IMG/VR virus record: IMGVR_UViG_2778261382_000003
Length of the DNA stretch: 18,906 nt
Origin: a virus
Taxonomy: Duplodnaviria; Heunggongvirae; Uroviricota; Caudoviricetes
Strand: one strand, 5' to 3'
Below are positions 9,997 through 16,237 of this stretch, one piece after another. The notes below the pieces were generated by a model, which worked only from the letters and a program-made list of their open reading frames with translations, was not told where the DNA came from and did no database searches. Within the stretch, counting starts at the first letter, position 1, and every line of letters starts with the position of its first letter. A program made the translations under genes and the position numbers.

Positions 9997-10506
9997 TTAG
10001 TCTGCCAAGTCTTCCTCAGTCGCAACTGGGTAATTCCAAATATCAAAAAAAGCTATAGCCTCCTGCCATTTGCTCCATAAGTTATCAAGTACTTGTGTAG
10101 GTTCCGTACTTTTAAAAACAGAATCAGCCGCATCACCGTTATGAACTTCCTCGTACAGTTCCATTATTAGCAGATTAACAAAGTACTGTTTCAACATTAA
10201 TGCCTGATTACCTTCTTTCTGCTGGCTATCCTGCTTGATGATCTCCATCGCCCGTACTAGGCACCTGATGATATCCGCTGCATCATTAACGCTCCATTCA
10301 GATCCGCGCTTATCTTTAGCTGATGAATTGGCTCTCTCAGCGCAAGCCTTTAAAGACTCATAAAGGTAAACTCTATTATGTAGCTGCAGCGCTTTTTTTG
10401 ACGTGTACCAACTTGCAAGCGCCGACCCCGCTGCGGCTAATGTGCCAAACGCAGAAATGCCTGCTGCTATTGCACTTAAGTCGGCACTGTCAAAGTTCCA
10501 CATCAT
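9997..10506 (-). CDS. Hypothetical membrane-anchored protein (169 aa, one N-terminal TM helix)
   Basis: ATG ATG start at 10501-10506 with SD (aaggtg). N-terminus SADLSAIAAGISAFGTLAAAGSALASWY is hydrophobic. Own AT-rich promoter region upstream (10507-10680). No family recognised. Confidence 0.6.
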   Translation of the reverse strand: MMWNFDSADLSAIAAGISAFGTLAAAGSALASWYTSKKALQLHNRVYLYESLKACAERANSSAKDKRGSEWSVNDAADIIRCLVRAMEIIKQDSQQKEGNQALMLKQYFVNLLIMELYEEVHNGDAADSVFKSTEPTQVLDNLWSKWQEAIAFFDIWNYPVATEEDLAD

Positions 10507-10741: not shown

Positions 10742-11350
10742 TTATTGCAACAGATTCTGACGGAAATATGGTAACACACGACTCCACTTATCATCCTGCC
10801 ACGGTTGGAATTTTACATGCGCCGTTTCTCTGGCAAGGATTTCTCGCGCCCTGTTGAGTATCCGAGGATATTCTTGTTCGATTGAAGTGAATCTACCTGC
10901 TTCGCGATGCTCTGCGACCTGAAGAAGGGGCGTAACGTTCTGGCAGGCGGTTAACATCGTATCACTTGCTCGCCATAACCAGGCGAGTGTGCAAAGTTCG
11001 TTATCAGTGAATTGTTTTGTGATTGGGGATTGTTGAACTTCTCGATCGAGAATATCCAGAACCCAGCGGCGGAATTCTTTGGCCACAGGAGTACGAGCAA
11101 ACATGGCGATCAAATGGGCTCCGCGAAGGCTAAATACTCGAGACTCCTGCATTCCACGAGGGGTGGTCACTTTGACCACCCTTGTCATCATATCTGTGAA
11201 TTCATCTGAGTGCCGAGAGTAAATGCGCTGAACTGCTTTATCGTCCGCATATTCCAGTGCTAAACCAACTTCAGTGGCAGTAAGCCAAATTCTGTTATTG
11301 TGGCAAATCGGGGTAAACGTCGTTTTGTGGAATGCTAATTGAGTAGTCAT
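10742..11350 (-). CDS. Bro-N domain protein (prophage antirepressor-like), 202 aa
   Basis: N-terminal region FTPICHNNRIWLTATEVGLALEYAD...VFSLRGAHLIAMFARTPVAKEFRRWVLDILDREV matches the Bro-N / KilA-N-like pattern (..AkeFr.Wv...) from memory. Flanked by its own promoter region and terminator. Confidence 0.7.
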   Translation of the reverse strand: MTTQLAFHKTTFTPICHNNRIWLTATEVGLALEYADDKAVQRIYSRHSDEFTDMMTRVVKVTTPRGMQESRVFSLRGAHLIAMFARTPVAKEFRRWVLDILDREVQQSPITKQFTDNELCTLAWLWRASDTMLTACQNVTPLLQVAEHREAGRFTSIEQEYPRILNRAREILARETAHVKFQPWQDDKWSRVLPYFRQNLLQ

Positions 11351-11505
11351 AGTATCACCTCATCAGGTTAACCATCACCACCAACGACGCCAATCGACTG
11401 GTGGTGAACTGTGTAAGGTTGGCGTAACCGGCTACTCAAACCCGGCGCTTCCGAAGAAGCCCTCACACAGCCCACCATAATTTGGGCATAGCCGTGCTTA
11501 GCGCA

Positions 11506-11527
11506 CAAAAAAACCGCTTAACGCGGT
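11506..11527 (-). terminator. Putative small rho-independent terminator (minus strand)
   Basis: Minus strand: accgc-gttaa-gcggt followed by seven T (plus-strand a7 at 11507-11513). Lies about 90 bp downstream of the 82-aa ORF. Confidence 0.4.
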
Positions 11528-11613
11528 ATGCGTTGAGTAGTATCCCGGGACGCCAATCCCGTGTGCCGATTTTGCGGCAACGCACAGAATATAGCGCCGG
11601 ATAAATCATGTCG

Positions 11614-11862
11614 TCAACCCCAGTAAATGGACACCATGATGATCACAGCCATAGCTGCTACAACAGTTACAACTACCTCAGGCCAAAACATAACGATTTC
11701 CATATCACCTTTAGCCGCCAGACGAATAGAGACTCCCAATTCTGGCTGTCGAAGTAAAACACCGAATGTAAAAAATCGTAGGTGCATTTCTGCATCTGTG
11801 AATGGAGATGAGAGTTTGGATTGTGTGTGCGCATAAACGTCCCCGTTTAGCGCAGAAGTCAC
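11614..11862 (-). CDS. Hypothetical small protein (82 aa, C-terminal hydrophobic segment); N-terminal 31 codons lie inside repeat copy B
   Basis: GTG start at 11860-11862; C-terminus IVMFWPEVVVTVVAAMAVIIMVSIYWG is hydrophobic. Its first 31 codons are shared with a 35-aa ORF in repeat copy A, differing by 4 synonymous and 1 non-synonymous changes. Weak RBS; coding status uncertain. Confidence 0.3.
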   Translation of the reverse strand: MTSALNGDVYAHTQSKLSSPFTDAEMHLRFFTFGVLLRQPELGVSIRLAAKGDMEIVMFWPEVVVTVVAAMAVIIMVSIYWG

Positions 11863-11885
11863 CGGAGTTTTTTAGGCTCCGATGA
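11764..11885. repeat. Direct repeat copy B (~120 bp)
   Basis: See copy A; 93 percent identity over 105 bp, same orientation, 1934 bp offset. Confidence 0.85.
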
Positions 11886-11981
11886 CAATATTATGGCTTT
11901 TTTATTTCTAAATTCAAAACTTGAAAATATTAAGATTCGCTTTTAAATCAACCCTAAACAACTGAAGATAACATCTGATAG

Positions 11982-12941
11982 TCAGCTAATTGCAAAGATA
12001 TTAAAAATAACTTTAGGGAGTGCGAAAGATGAAATAAAAAGCACAACCATAAAAATGGCATGCTTAATAAATGATGAGCTTGTAAAAAAAGCTCCTCCCT
12101 TGCTAATTCCTGCCATAAAAACAAAGATAAAGCTAATTAAGCACGACCATATCACTAACAAAACTGAGATTGACATGCTTAAAGACATATCGCGAGAAAA
12201 TACGTTTACTGAAATAGAAATGAAAGTAAAGAAAGAAGCAAATAAAGCAATGACACCCAGCATTGAGTTCCTTGCTGTAATTACTTCCGATTCAAAGCTT
12301 TTAACTTTCTCATGTATATCTTTTTCAGCATTTGATAATGTTGCATCAAATTGCTCAATCTTTGCAGTTTGCTGAGATAATGAAGACATTACCTTACCTA
12401 TTTTTCTTTTAGTATCATTAATATTCTTTTTGCTCTTATTCAACTCTTGCGAAAAATTGGTTAGTTGATCATTGATATTTTTCCAGAGGATGTTATCAAT
12501 ATCACTTTTTGTATATTTTTTTACATTCTCTTTATTAAAAGAAATTGTAGATTCAGAATTATTATTAACAAAGTAATTAGATAAAATGGCATTAGAGACA
12601 GTATTATCCATCACCGGCACAGTTGCTTTTGAACTGTATTTTATAGCTTCATGCAACATTTCTTTTTCATTAACAAAAAGAGAGGTTTTTATTAATTTTT
12701 GTGGTGCCGCGTCTTTGATGGATATACTTTCCCGCTCTTTATTTGAAGCTGTTGCAGTTTTATTATCTATCTGCAAATTACTAATTTTTTGTACCCCTCC
12801 TGTATACGTAGATGTACTATTCGATACTTGTGAATTAGAATAAAGTGAATGATGCGCAGTTCTTTTTGCCATGTCATCGTTGACTATAGCATTATTTTTT
12901 GCAGTTCTTTTTATATCCTTTTTATTATCATCCTTATTCAT
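11982..12941 (-). CDS. Hypothetical protein, 319 aa: low-complexity Ser/Thr/Asn-rich N-terminus, predicted helical / coiled-coil middle, about three C-terminal transmembrane helices; candidate membrane effector of a defence / exclusion module
   Basis: ATG at 12939-12941 with good SD (gaggtgg), 14 nt after the stop of the upstream gene. C-terminal hydrophobic segments MLGVIALFASFFTFISISVNVF, ISVLLVIWSCLISFIFVFMAGI, AIFMVVLFISSFALPKVIFNIFAI. About 27-30 percent GC against about 50 percent in flanking phage genes. Confidence 0.7.
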   Translation of the reverse strand: MNKDDNKKDIKRTAKNNAIVNDDMAKRTAHHSLYSNSQVSNSTSTYTGGVQKISNLQIDNKTATASNKERESISIKDAAPQKLIKTSLFVNEKEMLHEAIKYSSKATVPVMDNTVSNAILSNYFVNNNSESTISFNKENVKKYTKSDIDNILWKNINDQLTNFSQELNKSKKNINDTKRKIGKVMSSLSQQTAKIEQFDATLSNAEKDIHEKVKSFESEVITARNSMLGVIALFASFFTFISISVNVFSRDMSLSMSISVLLVIWSCLISFIFVFMAGISKGGAFFTSSSFIKHAIFMVVLFISSFALPKVIFNIFAIS

Positions 12942-12955
12942 TCAGCCACCTCACA

Positions 12956-13621
12956 TTACTGAATTTCATTCACTTTACTTAAAAAGGCTTTTTTTGTTTT
13001 TTCTGCGGTATATTTATCTTTAAATATAAAACTCTCGATTGTATTCACATCGATCTGTTTCACTAGCATTGGTTGTTCTCTGACAATATCATATCCTGAC
13101 ATAATCGACAAATGACAATTAAATATGGACTGCTCAAACTCGAATTTTTTATTATACATTAAATTAATATCTTCAATTATTTCGCTATCATTCTGCATGT
13201 TGTTACTAAGATAGTTTTTAACAATCTCTTTGTTTGGGTTGTTGTTTAATTCCGCCTTAACGGCCACCAAGCCTATTCTGATAATATCCTTATTGAGTTC
13301 TTTATGGATATCAACCACACTATCGAAAACTTCTTGAAACAAATGTAAGTCTACCTCTTGCTCAGAATCCATACGTTCAAAAAACAAATCACATCTCTGC
13401 AGTGAGCATTGAACTCTAAATTTATTATCTATAGAAAACAATTGGAGACGAGGAATCTCTGGTGGGGTATCCATAGGTAAAACGCCCAACATCATATTGT
13501 TTGTTAATTCAATACCTGCCTTCTTTTTAAAAGTTTGCCTAATAAAATACGACATTCCATCGAAATCGACAGTCGTTGATGAATCGTAAAAAAATACCAT
13601 TTGTAACTGTATGATTTTCAT
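12956..13621 (-). CDS. Hypothetical soluble protein, 221 aa; first gene of the AT-rich two-gene operon (candidate sensor / partner)
   Basis: ATG at 13619-13621, 152 bp after the P stop with an AT-rich promoter-like region between. Very AT-rich codon usage. No recognised motif. Confidence 0.7.
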   Translation of the reverse strand: MKIIQLQMVFFYDSSTTVDFDGMSYFIRQTFKKKAGIELTNNMMLGVLPMDTPPEIPRLQLFSIDNKFRVQCSLQRCDLFFERMDSEQEVDLHLFQEVFDSVVDIHKELNKDIIRIGLVAVKAELNNNPNKEIVKNYLSNNMQNDSEIIEDINLMYNKKFEFEQSIFNCHLSIMSGYDIVREQPMLVKQIDVNTIESFIFKDKYTAEKTKKAFLSKVNEIQ

Positions 13622-13773
13622 CCTATATTCCAGGTTTCAGCAATGTAAATTTGGCGCATTATTCTAGCTTACAACAGCAACATTTTTGAAGGGCTTTGCT
13701 AAAACTTTTATTCCCAGTGGCATTAATTTCAACCAATAGGACCTGAACAGAAAAAAACATAAAAATCAATGCA

Positions 13774-14496
13774 TTATTTCGAAATCTTTTTATATAATGC
13801 TTTTCCCCCTTTCAGCCCAAACTTAGCTTTGATTTCTGCGATCTTCGCCAGAGCCTGTGCACGATTTAGAGGCCTACCGCCCATGACAGGAAGTTGTTTT
13901 ACTGGTTCAGGTATCGCCTCACCACGGTTAATTCGCGCGGTCATACAGGTCAGCTCATCGGCAGCCTTGCGCCGTAATTCCGCGTCAGTCAACGCATTGG
14001 CCCGCATGTTCTGATACAGGTTGGTAACCAGCCAGTAGTGCGCGTTTGATTTCCACGGATAAGACTCTGCATCCGGATACAGCCCGCGCTTCCGGCAATA
14101 CTCGTAAACCATATCAACCAGCTCGCTGGCGTTTGGCAGCCCGGCGGTAACGGATGCTTCTTCCCGGCACCAGGCGACAAACTGCCCGGGTGATGGCAGG
14201 AATGGTCGATTCTGCCGACGGGCTACGCGCATTCCAGCGTTAACCTGTTCCATTGTGGTGATCCCGTTTTCCCGAAAAGCCAGCACCCACTGGCGGCGGA
14301 TTTCGTTCAGTTCATTCTGGTCACAGTTAGCCAGGCTCGCCGGGAAAGTTGCCAGTAACTGGCTGAACACACCGTTGATGATCTGCGCTACCTGCTGTAC
14401 CTGCGGCTTTTCGTCGTACTGTTCCGGCATGTTGTTGGCGATCCGACGCATCTGCTCACGGTCAAAGTTAACCATCTGTGCGGCGATGTTTTTCAT
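13774..14496 (-). CDS. P: Replication protein P (lambda P-like DnaB helicase loader)
   Basis: MKNIAAQMVNFDREQMRRIANNMPEQYDEKPQVQQVAQIINGVFSQ... is near-identical to lambda P over most of its length. ATG (14494-14496) overlaps the O stop (ATGA). The last ~10 residues (..KFGLKGGKALYKKISK) differ from lambda P as I recall it (..KFGLKGASV). Confidence 0.9.
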   Translation of the reverse strand: MKNIAAQMVNFDREQMRRIANNMPEQYDEKPQVQQVAQIINGVFSQLLATFPASLANCDQNELNEIRRQWVLAFRENGITTMEQVNAGMRVARRQNRPFLPSPGQFVAWCREEASVTAGLPNASELVDMVYEYCRKRGLYPDAESYPWKSNAHYWLVTNLYQNMRANALTDAELRRKAADELTCMTARINRGEAIPEPVKQLPVMGGRPLNRAQALAKIAEIKAKFGLKGGKALYKKISK

Positions 14497-15508: not shown

Positions 15509-15931
15509 TCATATCGCCCCCAGCATGGTAGTAACCATCGCCATCAATGGACCAGCCAGATCCGGGTCCACACGAAACATCGACACAATACCTTCACTAA
15601 TTTCCTTCAATTTCTGGTGGCGTGGTGCGTTGAGAATGACAGCCTGTTTTGCCTCACTGAGTTCCTTTTCCATTTCAGCCAACCTAGCCATGAAGCTATC
15701 CTGCTCAACCAGGTGGCCGCGATATTCCAGCGGTAGTACCGCCAGAATTGCCGGGGTCAGTTCACGCACGTTATTTCGGTATTTTTCAGAATCGAATTTG
15801 TTATCGAGGAAGCGGAACAGCTTCTGGCGTGCCCGACTGACATCATCAGGAAAATCGATGGTGACGCCGCCCTGTGCTCGATACTCATTCACAATGAGTG
15901 CGGCAACGACATCCTGATTAGGCGCGATCAC
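15509..15931 (-). CDS. Hypothetical protein in the cII position (about 141 aa; possibly a YdaT/CII-like regulator)
   Basis: The track ORF (15509-16051) begins at a GTG that would overlap the divergent gene at 16046. The internal GTG at 15929-15931 with SD (ggag) is the more plausible start. No lambda CII similarity; the YdaT-like suggestion comes from position and length only. Confidence 0.45.
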   Translation of the reverse strand: MIAPNQDVVAALIVNEYRAQGGVTIDFPDDVSRARQKLFRFLDNKFDSEKYRNNVRELTPAILAVLPLEYRGHLVEQDSFMARLAEMEKELSEAKQAVILNAPRHQKLKEISEGIVSMFRVDPDLAGPLMAMVTTMLGAI

Positions 15932-16045
15932 TTTCGTCCACTCCGTTACAAAGCGAGGCTGGGTATTTCCCGGCCTTTCTGTTATCAGAAATCCACTGAA
16001 AGCACAGCGGCTGGCTGAGAAGATAAATAATAAACGGGAGGCGGT

Positions 16046-16237
16046 ATGCACAAAGCATCTCCTGTTGAGTTAAGAACGAGTATTGAGATGGCACATAGCC
16101 TTGCTCAAATTGGAGTCAGGTTTGTGCCAATACCAGTAGAAACAGACGAAGAATTTCATACGTTAGCCACATCCCTTTCACAAAAGCTGGAAATGATGGT
16201 GGCGAAAGCAGAAGCAGATGAGAGAGACCAGGTATGA
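16046..16237 (+). CDS. Hypothetical small protein (63 aa), first gene of the leftward early operon remnant
   Basis: ATG at 16046 with strong SD (gggagg, 6 nt upstream). No HTH evident, so not obviously a repressor. Confidence 0.5.
   Translation: MHKASPVELRTSIEMAHSLAQIGVRFVPIPVETDEEFHTLATSLSQKLEMMVAKAEADERDQV

What the first reader, a model, noticed from the sequence alone, without database searches (positions are those of the whole stretch)
11982..13773. AT-rich two-gene operon (soluble 221-aa protein plus 319-aa protein with C-terminal 3-TM anchor) at the ren position: candidate novel abortive-infection or exclusion system
Two co-oriented genes (12956-13621 and 11982-12941, 14 nt apart, each with its own RBS) sit exactly where lambda carries ren, between P and the nin genes, a known hotspot for exclusion morons. 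GC content drops to about 27-30 percent against about 50 percent in flanking O/P/nin genes, so the cassette was acquired horizontally. The P C-terminus differs from lambda P right at the junction. The second protein has a disordered Ser/Thr/Asn-rich N-terminus, a helical middle and about three C-terminal TM helices, the layout of membrane-disrupting effectors; the first is soluble and could be the sensor. I recognise no known defence family motif in either protein (Rex, Kiwa, SLATT-type effectors and CBASS effectors do not obviously fit).
Basis: partly seen in the sequence, partly recalled or inferred. Interest (0 to 1): 0.85.

Follow-up and report, generated by a model that had tools for sequence, protein, structure and literature searches.

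The report
Uncharacterised two-gene prophage defence candidate
A lambda-like prophage of E. coli carries, in place of the ren gene, a foreign two-gene cassette (a soluble protein plus a membrane protein) that belongs to a large, unnamed gene family found next to restriction systems and in prophage cargo slots, so it is most likely an untested anti-phage defence system.

Summary
Two co-oriented minus-strand genes, A (12956-13621, 221 aa) and B (11982-12941, 319 aa), lie 14 nt apart. Their GC is 31% against 48-54% in the flanking O and P genes. They sit directly after lambda-type P, where sister prophages carry ren.

No Pfam, NCBIfam, PADLOC, PDB-sequence or convincing fold match names either protein.

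New here:
- A belongs to a large unannotated family: 927 clusters at 50% identity, almost all 215-240 aa.
- A is almost always followed by a tightly coupled partner gene, and the partner type changes:
  - B-like proteins (disordered N-terminus, coiled coil, three near-invariant TM helices) in enterobacterial prophages;
  - small two-TM proteins in Firmicute prophages and beside a Type II R-M system;
  - a soluble protein plus a HEPN or PIN protein in environmental contigs, many next to hsdS and other R-M genes.
- The same slot in sister E. coli prophages holds DUF4041 (the domain I recall for SNIPE), DUF4145 or HEPN cargo.
- DefensePredictor (Science 2026) lists A's cluster as a "predicted novel defense gene", not validated.

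Best reading: a sensor (A) plus membrane effector (B) defence module. It resembles RexAB in logic but not in sequence. Function and mechanism are inferred, not shown.

The parts
13622..13773 (-). AT-rich (34% GC) intergenic region between the P stop codon and gene A. It holds two sigma-70-like promoter matches: TTCAAA-18-TAGAAT at 13690-13661 and TTTACA-18-TAGGAT at 13649-13620.
   Evidence: These are consensus matches only (9 of 12 positions); promoter activity was not shown.
12956..13621 (-). Gene A. It encodes a 221-aa acidic soluble protein with a two-lobed alpha/beta sandwich of two beta-alpha-beta-beta-beta-alpha repeats. It belongs to a large unannotated family and is the proposed sensor/regulator.
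   Evidence: ORF. AlphaFold2: pLDDT 89.7, pTM 0.87. Family size: 927 representatives at E<=1e-3. Family-wide conserved positions: P49, P53, P57, R76, D78, R115, G117, N168, D191, N193. PHROG 24110, function unknown. Listed as a predicted novel defence gene in DefensePredictor Table S10.
12942..12955 (-). 14-nt spacer between A and B carrying the GAGGTGG Shine-Dalgarno sequence for B.
   Evidence: read directly from the sequence.
12522..12941 (-). Gene B, codons 1-140: a Ser/Thr/Asn-rich, predicted disordered, hypervariable N-terminal region.
   Evidence: pLDDT below 50. No conserved columns among 22 homologues. pN 0.42-0.57 against pS 0.62-0.81.
12270..12521 (-). Gene B, codons 141-224: a long cytoplasmic helix or coiled coil that runs into TM1 and ends in the conserved F-E-x-E-x-x-x-A-R-N-S junction motif.
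   Evidence: AlphaFold2 helix 145-248 at pLDDT about 87-90. Only coiled-coil-type chance hits in Pfam and PDB. Alignment.
11982..12269 (-). Gene B, codons 225-319 plus the stop codon: three transmembrane helices, near-invariant across genera (VIALFASFFTFISISVN.FSRDMSL ... WSCLISFIF.FMAGISKGG.FFTS..F.KHA). This is the proposed membrane effector domain.
   Evidence: Hydropathy. Alignment with 48 invariant columns, almost all in this stretch. pN 0.07-0.22 against pS 0.72-0.87. About 60% identity is retained in the Yersinia homologue whose A partner is only 28% identical.
11858..11886 (-). 10-bp hairpin (GUCAUCGGAG-N9-CUCCGGUGAC) about 95 nt after the B stop codon, at the point where homology with sister prophages resumes. 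It marks the left edge of the variable cargo segment (about 11860-13808).
   Evidence: No U-tract follows it, so it is not a canonical terminator.
11513..11527 (-). Intrinsic-terminator-like hairpin followed by a T-run, in the conserved flank downstream of the cassette. It is a possible end point for the cassette transcript (tR2-like position).
   Evidence: Conserved in sister prophages that carry other cargo. Function not tested.
13774..13808 (-). Divergent 3' tail of gene P (last ~9 codons plus stop), marking the right edge of the cargo segment.
   Evidence: DNA homology to other prophages starts at window position ~13808.

Best explanation
Genes A and B form a prophage-borne ('moron') two-component anti-phage system of a family that has not been characterised.

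Proposed mechanism:
- The cassette is expressed from its own promoter in the lysogen (inferred).
- A is a cytoplasmic alpha/beta protein. It acts as the sensor or regulator that detects an infection cue (inferred).
- B is anchored in the inner membrane by three highly conserved, Ser/Thr/Asn-rich TM helices. A long coiled coil and a disordered N-terminal tail face the cytoplasm.
- On activation B oligomerises or changes conformation and compromises the membrane. Phage development is aborted (inferred).

Shown: the gene pair, the protein architectures, strong purifying selection, co-conservation of A with B, and A's association with interchangeable partner modules in defence-type neighbourhoods.

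Inferred: the defence function, the direction of signalling (A to B), and membrane damage as the output.
For: 1. Pair conservation.
- Every B homologue examined has an A homologue immediately upstream. This holds in Klebsiella, Citrobacter, Leclercia, Erwinia and Kosakonia prophages.
- It also holds in a Yersinia lambdoid prophage where A is only 28% identical and B 35% identical.
- Two metagenome contigs show the same pairing.

2. A belongs to a large family: 927 representatives at E<=1e-3 and 281 at E<=1e-10.

3. Tight coupling to a partner gene.
- In 63 of 65 metagenome loci with room, a co-oriented ORF starts within -45 to +30 nt of A's stop codon.
- In 41 of these the ORFs overlap.

4. 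The partner is swapped between loci, as effector modules are in defence systems:
- B-type coiled coil plus 3 TM;
- small S/T-rich 2-TM proteins;
- a soluble X protein plus HEPN (PF05168 E 1.3e-5; PADLOC PDC-M05B and HEPN_IX) or PIN (PF01850 E 1.6e-5). One X family weakly resembles AbiEii.

5. Neighbourhoods.
- hsdS lies directly upstream in 16 loci.
- Among 150 ORFs from 18 loci, the Pfam tally is N6_Mtase 9, Eco57I 6, Methylase_S 6, N6_N4_Mtase 4, MmeI_Mtase 4, EcoEI_R_C 3 and HSDR_N 2.
- One subfamily sits directly after a C5-methylase plus RE_Eco47II pair. Another sits beside SocA_Panacea and DUF5677.

6. The same slot in sister E. coli prophages holds DUF4041, DUF4145 or HEPN cargo. I recall DUF4041 as the SNIPE domain; the SNIPE paper outline read does not name it.

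7. DefensePredictor scored A's cluster as defensive: mean log-odds 4.99, 'Predicted novel defense gene' (PMC13092281 Table S10).

8. The cassette has low GC and promoter-like sites in its own upstream spacer. It is present in only 21 of 5,426 complete E. coli genomes.
Against: - There is no experimental phenotype for this or any family member that I could find.
- No catalytic or ligand-binding motif was identified in A.
- The model of B is confident only for isolated helices (pTM 0.27). Pore formation is conjecture.
- Guilt by association also fits toxin-antitoxin or addiction modules.
- Neither A nor B was found in 50,697 phage records, and A was not found in 72,556 plasmid records. Carriage is therefore seen only in prophages and islands.
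- B was not found in the stored part of DefensePredictor Table S10; that file was truncated when stored.
Confidence: 0.5

Rival explanations
1. Superinfection exclusion at the envelope. B sits in the inner membrane and blocks genome entry of incoming phages, for example by interfering with the injection channel or tape-measure insertion. A acts as a cytoplasmic accessory or stabiliser. There would be no cell death.
For: - B is an inner-membrane protein encoded by a prophage.
- Its TM domain is far more conserved than its soluble part, as expected if it contacts conserved host membrane machinery.
- The same slot in a sister prophage holds a DUF4041 gene. I recall DUF4041 as the domain of SNIPE, which acts at the membrane during injection (PMC13190303 abstract); the domain assignment is from memory.
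Against: - In many relatives A is paired with cytoplasmic HEPN or PIN proteins and no membrane protein. That fits a swappable toxic effector better than an entry block.
- Known entry-exclusion proteins usually act alone.
- The bulk of B faces the cytoplasm; the periplasmic loops are only a few residues long.
Confidence: 0.15
2. A toxin-antitoxin or addiction module that stabilises the prophage or island. B and the other partners are toxins, A is the cognate antitoxin, and there is no dedicated anti-phage role.
For: - The two genes are tightly coupled or overlapping, with a small membrane protein or a HEPN/PIN partner.
- One subfamily neighbours a Panacea-type TA module.
- One X family weakly resembles AbiEii.
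- The pair is carried on mobile elements.
Against: - A, at 221 aa and highly conserved, is large for an antitoxin and lacks a DNA-binding domain.
- One antitoxin fold neutralising membrane proteins, HEPN and PIN alike would be unusual.
- Embedding in R-M operons and the DefensePredictor score favour defence.
- Many TA modules act in defence anyway, so this rival overlaps the main explanation.
Confidence: 0.12
3. A function in the phage's own life cycle, replacing ren or acting in lysis or replication control. Examples would be a holin/antiholin-like pair or a regulator of DNA replication at the membrane.
For: - The cassette occupies the early-right operon just after O and P and could be read through from pR.
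- Firmicute relatives lie beside holin and endolysin genes.
- B-type proteins have holin-like small TM bundles.
Against: - The cassette is present in only 21 of 5,426 E. coli genomes, while P-type replication modules occur in more than 3,600.
- It is absent from all 50,697 sequenced phage records.
- Relatives sit in non-phage R-M loci and small integrative elements.
- Its GC is foreign and it has its own promoter-like spacer.
Confidence: 0.08
4. Another lysogenic-conversion function at the membrane that benefits the host, such as stress tolerance, colicin or toxin immunity, or surface modification. This would be unrelated to phages.
For: - Moron slots also carry virulence and fitness genes. 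The same slot holds a YajG-like lipoprotein or a TagO-like gene in some prophages.
- B is a membrane protein of unknown function.
Against: - There is no signal peptide and no periplasmic domain.
- The constant partner across the family is cytoplasmic A, with RNase-type partners elsewhere.
- The neighbourhoods are dominated by R-M genes.
Confidence: 0.07

Closest known systems
RexA/RexB of phage lambda (prophage-encoded exclusion system: soluble sensor plus membrane ion-channel effector)
   Same: - Two adjacent genes in a lambdoid prophage.
- One soluble protein of about 220-280 aa and one polytopic inner-membrane protein.
- Proposed logic: a cytoplasmic sensor activates a membrane effector, causing abortive infection.
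- Cargo that is dispensable for the phage.
   Different: - No sequence similarity: PADLOC gave no hit at E<=1.
- B has 3 TM helices plus a 225-residue cytoplasmic N-terminal part; RexB is a 144-aa protein with 4 TM helices (from memory).
- The location is the ren slot after P, not the immunity region.
- The A family also pairs with HEPN or PIN partners, which is not known for RexA.
Effector-swapping defence families with TM or nuclease effectors (CBASS, retrons, Thoeris, Avs-type logic)
   Same: A conserved upstream component is combined with alternative effector modules: multi-TM proteins, small 2-TM proteins, or HEPN/PIN RNases. The neighbourhoods are mobile elements and R-M loci.
   Different: - No cyclase, reverse transcriptase, TIR/SIR2 or STAND NTPase is present.
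- A has no recognisable signalling-enzyme motif.
- No SLATT or other known TM effector profile matches B or its analogues.
Genes embedded in Type I R-M operons, such as the anticodon nuclease PrrC in the EcoprrI locus (established knowledge, not tested here)
   Same: Distant A-family operons (A plus X plus HEPN) sit directly after hsdS in 16 metagenome loci, with hsdM/hsdR-type genes around them. This is the arrangement known for R-M-guarded abortive-infection nucleases.
   Different: - The window's cassette is in a prophage, not in an R-M operon.
- Its partner is a membrane protein, not a nuclease.
- There is no homology to PrrC or RloC.
PADLOC candidate systems PDC-M05 (HEPN-type B gene) and PDC-M32
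   Same: The third gene of some distant A-family operons matches PDC-M05B and HEPN_IX (E 2e-7 and 2e-5). One X family matches the C-terminal part of PDC-M32A (E 1e-9).
   Different: Neither A nor B nor any of 64 A-family members matches any PADLOC model. The matches concern partner genes of remote relatives only.
S-adenosylmethionine decarboxylase / TBP-like two-lobed alpha-beta sandwich folds
   Different: - Sequence identity is 5-9%.
- There is no pyruvoyl-forming serine motif.
- TM scores are below 0.5.
- This is a fold-class resemblance, not evidence of function.

Membership tests
RexAB (lambda exclusion system) | Sequence or profile homology of the soluble component to RexA and of the membrane component to RexB | tested here: not met
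   PADLOC-DB scan of A and B gave no family at E<=1. I assume from memory that PADLOC-DB includes Rex models; I did not check this. Pfam and NCBIfam gave nothing relevant.
RexAB (lambda exclusion system) | Located in the immunity region and co-transcribed with cI | tested here: not met
   The cassette lies after P, at the ren position. The repressor-like S24 peptidase gene is about 3.5 kb away on the other side of O/P.
RexAB (lambda exclusion system) | Membrane depolarisation and abortive infection on activation | not testable with these tools
   Needs an experiment.
Kiwa (KwaA/KwaB) | KwaB DUF4868 domain and a 4-TM KwaA protein | tested here: not met
   No Pfam or PADLOC hit for A or B. B has 3 C-terminal TM helices and a long cytoplasmic N-terminal part.
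SLATT / CBASS-type TM effectors | A SLATT or other known TM-effector profile, plus an associated nucleotide cyclase or SMODS gene | tested here: not met
   No profile hit. No cyclase is present in the cassette or in any related locus inspected.
Any defence system in PADLOC-DB v2.0.0 | Profile match of at least one component | tested here: not met
   A, B, 64 A-family members and B-like or 2-TM partners gave no significant match. Only the HEPN and X partners of remote relatives match candidate models.
The new A-family module (A plus a coupled partner), defined here | A roughly 215-240 aa protein with the motifs Q.A.FF, P..AP.EIPR..L.S, R.DF, R.G, N, and (R/K)DIN | tested here: met
   Window A carries P49, P53, E55-I56-P57-R58, R76-x-D78, R115-x-G117, N168 and Q189-x-D191-x-N193. 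The profile search recovered 927 family representatives.
The new A-family module (A plus a coupled partner), defined here | A co-oriented partner gene starting within a few tens of nucleotides of A's stop codon | tested here: met
   The gap is 14 nt in the window. The same holds in 63 of 65 metagenome loci and in all enterobacterial, Firmicute and other loci inspected.
B family (coiled coil plus 3-TM partner), defined here | The junction motif (R/K)N(S/A).L(G/A).IA(L/I)FA(S/A)FF(T/S)F(I/V)S, followed by two more TM helices and preceded by a coiled coil and a low-complexity N-terminus | tested here: met
   Window B residues 224-243 read RNSMLGVIALFASFFTFISI. The motif is shared by 21 homologues, the Yersinia protein (E 9e-38) and two metagenome proteins (E 3e-18 for L115). 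Resemblance to the L086 and L104 partners is weaker (hhalign E 1.7e-3 and 1.2e-4).
HEPN-MNT / AbiE-type toxin-antitoxin systems | A HEPN or nucleotidyltransferase domain in the cassette | tested here: not met
   Absent from window A and B. Present only in partner genes of remote A-family operons.
Phage holins or lysis proteins | A holin profile match and a position in the lysis cassette | tested here: not met
   No Pfam or PHROG holin hit. The window's lysis genes (essD, rrrD and Rz-type) lie about 5-6 kb away, beyond Q.
TIGR04255 family (uncharacterised) | A profile match above the curated cut-off | tested here: not met
   [not shown]

The most novel reading that the evidence does not exclude
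The A protein defines a widespread, so far unnamed superfamily of defence 'adaptor/sensor' proteins, with about 900 clusters at 50% identity spread from Enterobacteria to Firmicutes and uncultured sediment bacteria. It works with interchangeable killing modules: a coiled-coil 3-TM protein, a 2-TM micro-protein, or NTase-like plus HEPN/PIN RNases. It is often guarded by, or guards, R-M systems. The E. coli A+B pair would then be the genetically tractable entry point to a new, large modular immune family with a sensor fold not seen in known systems.
Probability: 0.45. Interest if true: 0.8.

Novelty: new variant of a known kind. Interest (0 to 1): 0.6.

Why it matters
- If A+B protects against phages, it would add a new defence family whose core component has no Pfam, NCBIfam or PADLOC model even though it has hundreds of diverged members.
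- The natural effector swapping (membrane proteins versus HEPN or PIN) would make it a clean system for asking how one sensor fold couples to very different outputs.
- The E. coli version sits in a lambdoid prophage that can be handled with standard genetics. The hypothesis is therefore testable with plaque assays, toxicity tests and escape mutants.
- It also documents the P-to-nin junction of DLP12-site prophages as a cargo slot. Besides ren, that slot holds DUF4041, DUF4145, HEPN and this cassette, which is useful for mining further systems.
- It gives an independent, context-based check on one of the 1,041 unvalidated DefensePredictor clusters.

Tried and rejected
Searches that found nothing:
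- Pfam, NCBIfam and PADLOC scans of A and B gave only sub-threshold noise: zf-C2H2_aberr, Dicer platform, MobQ, spectrin and DUF1664 (coiled-coil).
- PDB sequence-profile searches gave nothing for A and only coiled-coil chance hits for B.
- Megablast and tblastn against 50,697 phage records gave no match for A or B. tblastn of A against 72,556 plasmid records gave no match.
- Literature searches by accession and for 'TIGR04255' gave no papers.
- Motif strings from A and B were not found in the sequences of validated DefensePredictor systems (Table S8).

Weak or rejected leads:
- The BFVD search gave one unnamed viral protein (E 9e-9, TM about 0.6) and nothing informative.
- NCBI's 'Yip1 family protein' name for one B homologue is not supported for the window protein.
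- hhalign of the B profile against the Firmicute 2-TM partner showed no relationship (prob 0.3%). I treat it as a different partner class.

Unavailable or failed:
- The AFDB Foldseek library was not available.
- The search for related loci failed with alignments that were too diverse.
- A viral-contig scan with the 'EIPRLQ' subfamily only re-found the enterobacterial loci.
- The Brenes and Laub 2025 prophage-defence screen is not held in the library. I could not check whether that screen hit this cassette.
- SNIPE (PMC13190303) was considered. It is described as a single membrane-bound nuclease, not this pair.
Full report
**1. The observation**

The window is a lambdoid prophage integrated at the argU/DLP12 site of E. 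coli. An identical stretch in strain AR_0077 runs from integrase, through bet/exo, an S24 repressor-like gene, O, P, nin-type genes, Q and lysis genes, to terminase.

On the minus strand there are two ORFs exactly as described:
- A at 12956-13621 (221 aa);
- B at 11982-12941 (319 aa).

They are separated by 14 nt carrying GAGGTGG. A's own Shine-Dalgarno sequence is weak.

GC content is 31.7% for A and 30.5% for B, against 53.5% for P and 47.8% for O. P (PF06992, E 4e-61) and O (PF04492) lie immediately upstream. A Bro-N/P22AR_C anti-repressor-like gene and an unknown 169-aa gene lie downstream, before ybcN (ninB-like)/ninE/ybcO/rusA.

**2. Boundaries and the slot**

I compared the region with 5,426 complete E. 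coli genomes.
- The cassette is present in 21 genomes, always next to P, at 99.4% identity or higher.
- The flanks occur in more than 3,600 genomes.
- DNA homology with other prophages stops at about window 13808, in the last codons of P. P is 98% identical to a ren-linked P up to about residue 236 and then diverges.
- Homology resumes at about 11855-11900, around a conserved hairpin at 11858-11886.

Sister prophages at the same chromosomal site carry different cargo between P and ybcN:
- ren only;
- ren plus an oppositely oriented DUF4041 gene (the domain I recall for the membrane nuclease SNIPE, PMC13190303; the outline read does not name the domain);
- a ren pseudogene plus a TagO-like gene, a HEPN gene and a hypothetical gene;
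- a winged-helix gene plus DUF4145.

**3. The proteins**

A:
- A is acidic and has no hydrophobic segment.
- With a 13-sequence alignment, AlphaFold2 gives a confident model (pLDDT 89.7, pTM 0.87). The fold is two beta-alpha-beta-beta-beta-alpha repeats forming a two-lobed sandwich.
  - AdoMetDC prozyme, TM 0.41;
  - TBP, TM about 0.27.
- BFVD gives one unnamed viral protein.
- I do not draw a function from these matches.

B:
- Residues 1-140 are Ser/Thr/Asn-rich, with pLDDT below 50.
- Residues 145-248 form one long helix (coiled coil running into TM1).
- Two further TM helices span 254-281 and 289-315.
- The positive-inside rule suggests N-terminus in, C-terminus out (my reading of K281/K293 in loop 2). 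This was not run through a dedicated predictor.

Among 22 homologues the N-terminal part is unalignable. The TM domain is nearly invariant, with 48 invariant columns. Non-synonymous divergence is 0.07-0.22 in the TM domain against 0.42-0.57 in the N-terminal part, with synonymous sites saturated.

**4. No known family**

- Pfam, NCBIfam and PADLOC-DB v2 return nothing significant for A or B.
- PHROGs holds both as families of unknown function, 24110 and 25335.
- PDB sequence-profile searches are empty for A and return only coiled-coil noise for B.
- tblastn finds neither protein in 50,697 GenBank phage records, and does not find A in 72,556 plasmids.

**5. Relatives and their contexts (the informative part)**

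*Close homologues.* The word-indexed search found only enterobacterial homologues: 13 clusters for A and 26 for B. In every B locus inspected, a gene of about 220 aa that is 36-64% identical to A sits just upstream. These loci are:
- lambdoid prophages of a Klebsiella-like host and of Kosakonia, again right after P;
- prophage remnants in Citrobacter and Leclercia;
- an Erwinia prophage, next to Dam, a DNA methylase, Exc and Int.

*The wider family.* An exhaustive HMMER search with the A profile found 927 representatives at E<=1e-3 and 281 at E<=1e-10. Almost all are 215-240 aa. They share the motifs Q.A.FF, P..AP.EIPR..L.S, R.DF, R.G, N and (R/K)DIN. None of 64 sampled members has a Pfam, NCBIfam or PADLOC assignment.

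*Partner genes.* Contexts of distant members fall into three partner classes.
- **B-type partners.**
  - A Yersinia enterocolitica lambdoid prophage carries A at 28% identity. Its partner is 35% identical to B overall and about 60% identical in the TM domain (E 9e-38).
  - Two metagenome contigs carry 185-194-aa coiled-coil plus 3-TM partners with the same RN..LG.IA.FA.FFTF.S junction motif.
  - Two sediment contigs have weaker B-like partners flanked by DNA methyltransferases.
- **Small 2-TM partners with an S/T-rich N-terminus (112-147 aa).**
  - Firmicute prophages, beside the lysis genes.
  - Directly after a C5-methylase plus RE_Eco47II pair, in some cases on an integrative mobilisable element.
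  - A small integrase/Rep element, next to DUF5677 and a Panacea-type module.
- **Soluble partners.** In about 45 of 80 metagenome loci, A is followed by one of three unannotated X families and often by a third gene.
  - The third gene is HEPN (PF05168 E 1.3e-5; PADLOC PDC-M05B and HEPN_IX) or PIN (PF01850 E 1.6e-5).
  - One X family weakly resembles AbiEii. Another resembles the C-terminus of PDC-M32A.

*Coupling and neighbourhoods.*
- In 63 of 65 loci with room, the partner starts within -45 to +30 nt of A's stop codon. In 41 of these the ORFs overlap.
- Sixteen loci have hsdS directly upstream.
- A Pfam tally over 150 ORFs from 18 loci is dominated by R-M domains: N6_Mtase 9, Eco57I 6, Methylase_S 6, N6_N4_Mtase 4, MmeI_Mtase 4, EcoEI_R_C 3, HsdM_N 3 and HSDR_N 2.

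**6. Literature**

- DefensePredictor (DeWeirdt, Mahoney and Laub, Science 2026, PMC13092281) lists A's cluster in Table S10. The representative is WP_021526100.1. The row is WP_224204944.1, NZ_CP083585.1 3764650-3765315, which is one of the 21 genomes.
- The cluster is one of 1,041 uncharacterised clusters. Its mean log-odds is 4.99, it is labelled 'Predicted novel defense gene', and it has no HHblits or Foldseek defence homologue.
- It is not among the validated systems. Motif strings from A and B are absent from the sequences in Table S8.
- B's accession was not found, but the stored table is truncated.
- I found no paper naming either protein.
- The Brenes and Laub 2025 prophage screen could not be read.

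**7. Interpretation**

Four independent lines point to anti-phage defence:
- a constant component with swappable toxic-looking partners;
- embedding in R-M loci and mobile-element cargo slots;
- occupancy of a slot that elsewhere holds other defence-type cargo (DUF4041, DUF4145, HEPN);
- a machine-learning call that does not use genomic co-localisation with known defence genes.

The logic most consistent with the anatomy has two parts:
- A is the cytoplasmic sensor or regulator.
- B is the membrane effector. Its conserved, polar-residue-rich TM bundle damages membrane integrity when triggered.

RexAB is the closest functional analogue, but every membership feature I could test is not met.

I put about 0.5 on this whole statement. 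I put about 0.65 on 'defence system of some mechanism'. The rivals cannot be excluded without experiments:
- entry exclusion (0.15);
- a pure addiction or TA module (0.12);
- a phage life-cycle role (0.08);
- another lysogenic-conversion function (0.07).

The hypervariable, near-neutrally evolving N-terminal tail of B could be a specificity determinant or merely a spacer. The data do not decide between these.

**8. Novelty and score**

- The protein families are new to curated databases and untested.
- The kind of system is familiar: a prophage moron with a sensor and a membrane or RNase effector.
- The gene was already flagged computationally.
- I therefore rate it a new variant of a known kind, with interest 0.6.
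- It remains clearly worth a bench test, because the family is large, modular and directly tractable in E. coli.

Noticed in passing
window 9997-10506 (-): A 169-aa ORF (PHROG 1779, function unknown; GC 44%) with an Ala/Gly-rich hydrophobic N-terminal stretch. It sits between the anti-repressor-like gene and ybcN. It has no Pfam, NCBIfam or PADLOC hit and is also present in a sister prophage that carries the DUF4041 cargo. It may be a second cargo gene.
   Followed up: partly
window 10742-11350 (-): A Bro-N plus P22AR_C anti-repressor-like gene (PF02498 E 4e-10, PF10548 E 2e-17; PHROG 245 'Ant') lies inside the nin region, between the cassette and ybcN.
   Followed up: partly
window 11351-11981: About 630 nt with no annotated gene in RefSeq, yet highly conserved among prophages with different cargo. 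It contains an 82-aa GTG ORF (11614-11862, -), a terminator-like hairpin plus T-run (11513-11527, -) and a strong promoter-like match TTGACG-18-TATATT (11617-11588, -). It may be the tR2-equivalent regulatory region.
   Followed up: partly
Sister prophages L118-L121 (E. coli NZ_CP172331, NZ_CP048330, NZ_AP025546, NZ_CP027461): The P-to-ybcN slot is a cargo hotspot. It holds ren alone; ren plus DUF4041; a ren pseudogene plus a TagO-like gene, a HEPN gene and a hypothetical gene; or a wHTH gene plus DUF4145 plus a holE-like pseudogene. A YajG-like lipoprotein is listed in another genome (H30).
   Followed up: partly
L043, L035, L032, L085, L062 and others (metagenome loci, genes after the A homologue): Three unannotated 'X' protein families (about 200-320 aa) follow A homologues. 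They are usually followed by HEPN or PIN genes. One X family weakly resembles AbiEii (E 6e-4) and another the C-terminus of PADLOC candidate PDC-M32A (E 1e-9). Together these look like uncharacterised three-gene operons, many directly after hsdS.
   Followed up: partly
P0075 (326 aa), P0065, P0160: A few A-family members carry N-terminal extensions of 30-125 residues, with the A domain at 127-309 in P0075. The extensions were not examined.
   Followed up: no
window 15509-16051 (-): The gene upstream of O is annotated in the identical RefSeq region as 'toxin YdaT domain-containing protein' and sits where lambda has cII. The Klebsiella-type relative has the same arrangement (PF06254).
   Followed up: no
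B homologue P0016 (Citrobacter werkmanii): NCBI names this B homologue 'Yip1 family protein'. No Yip1 profile hit was obtained for the window protein, so the name looks like an over-annotation.
   Followed up: partly
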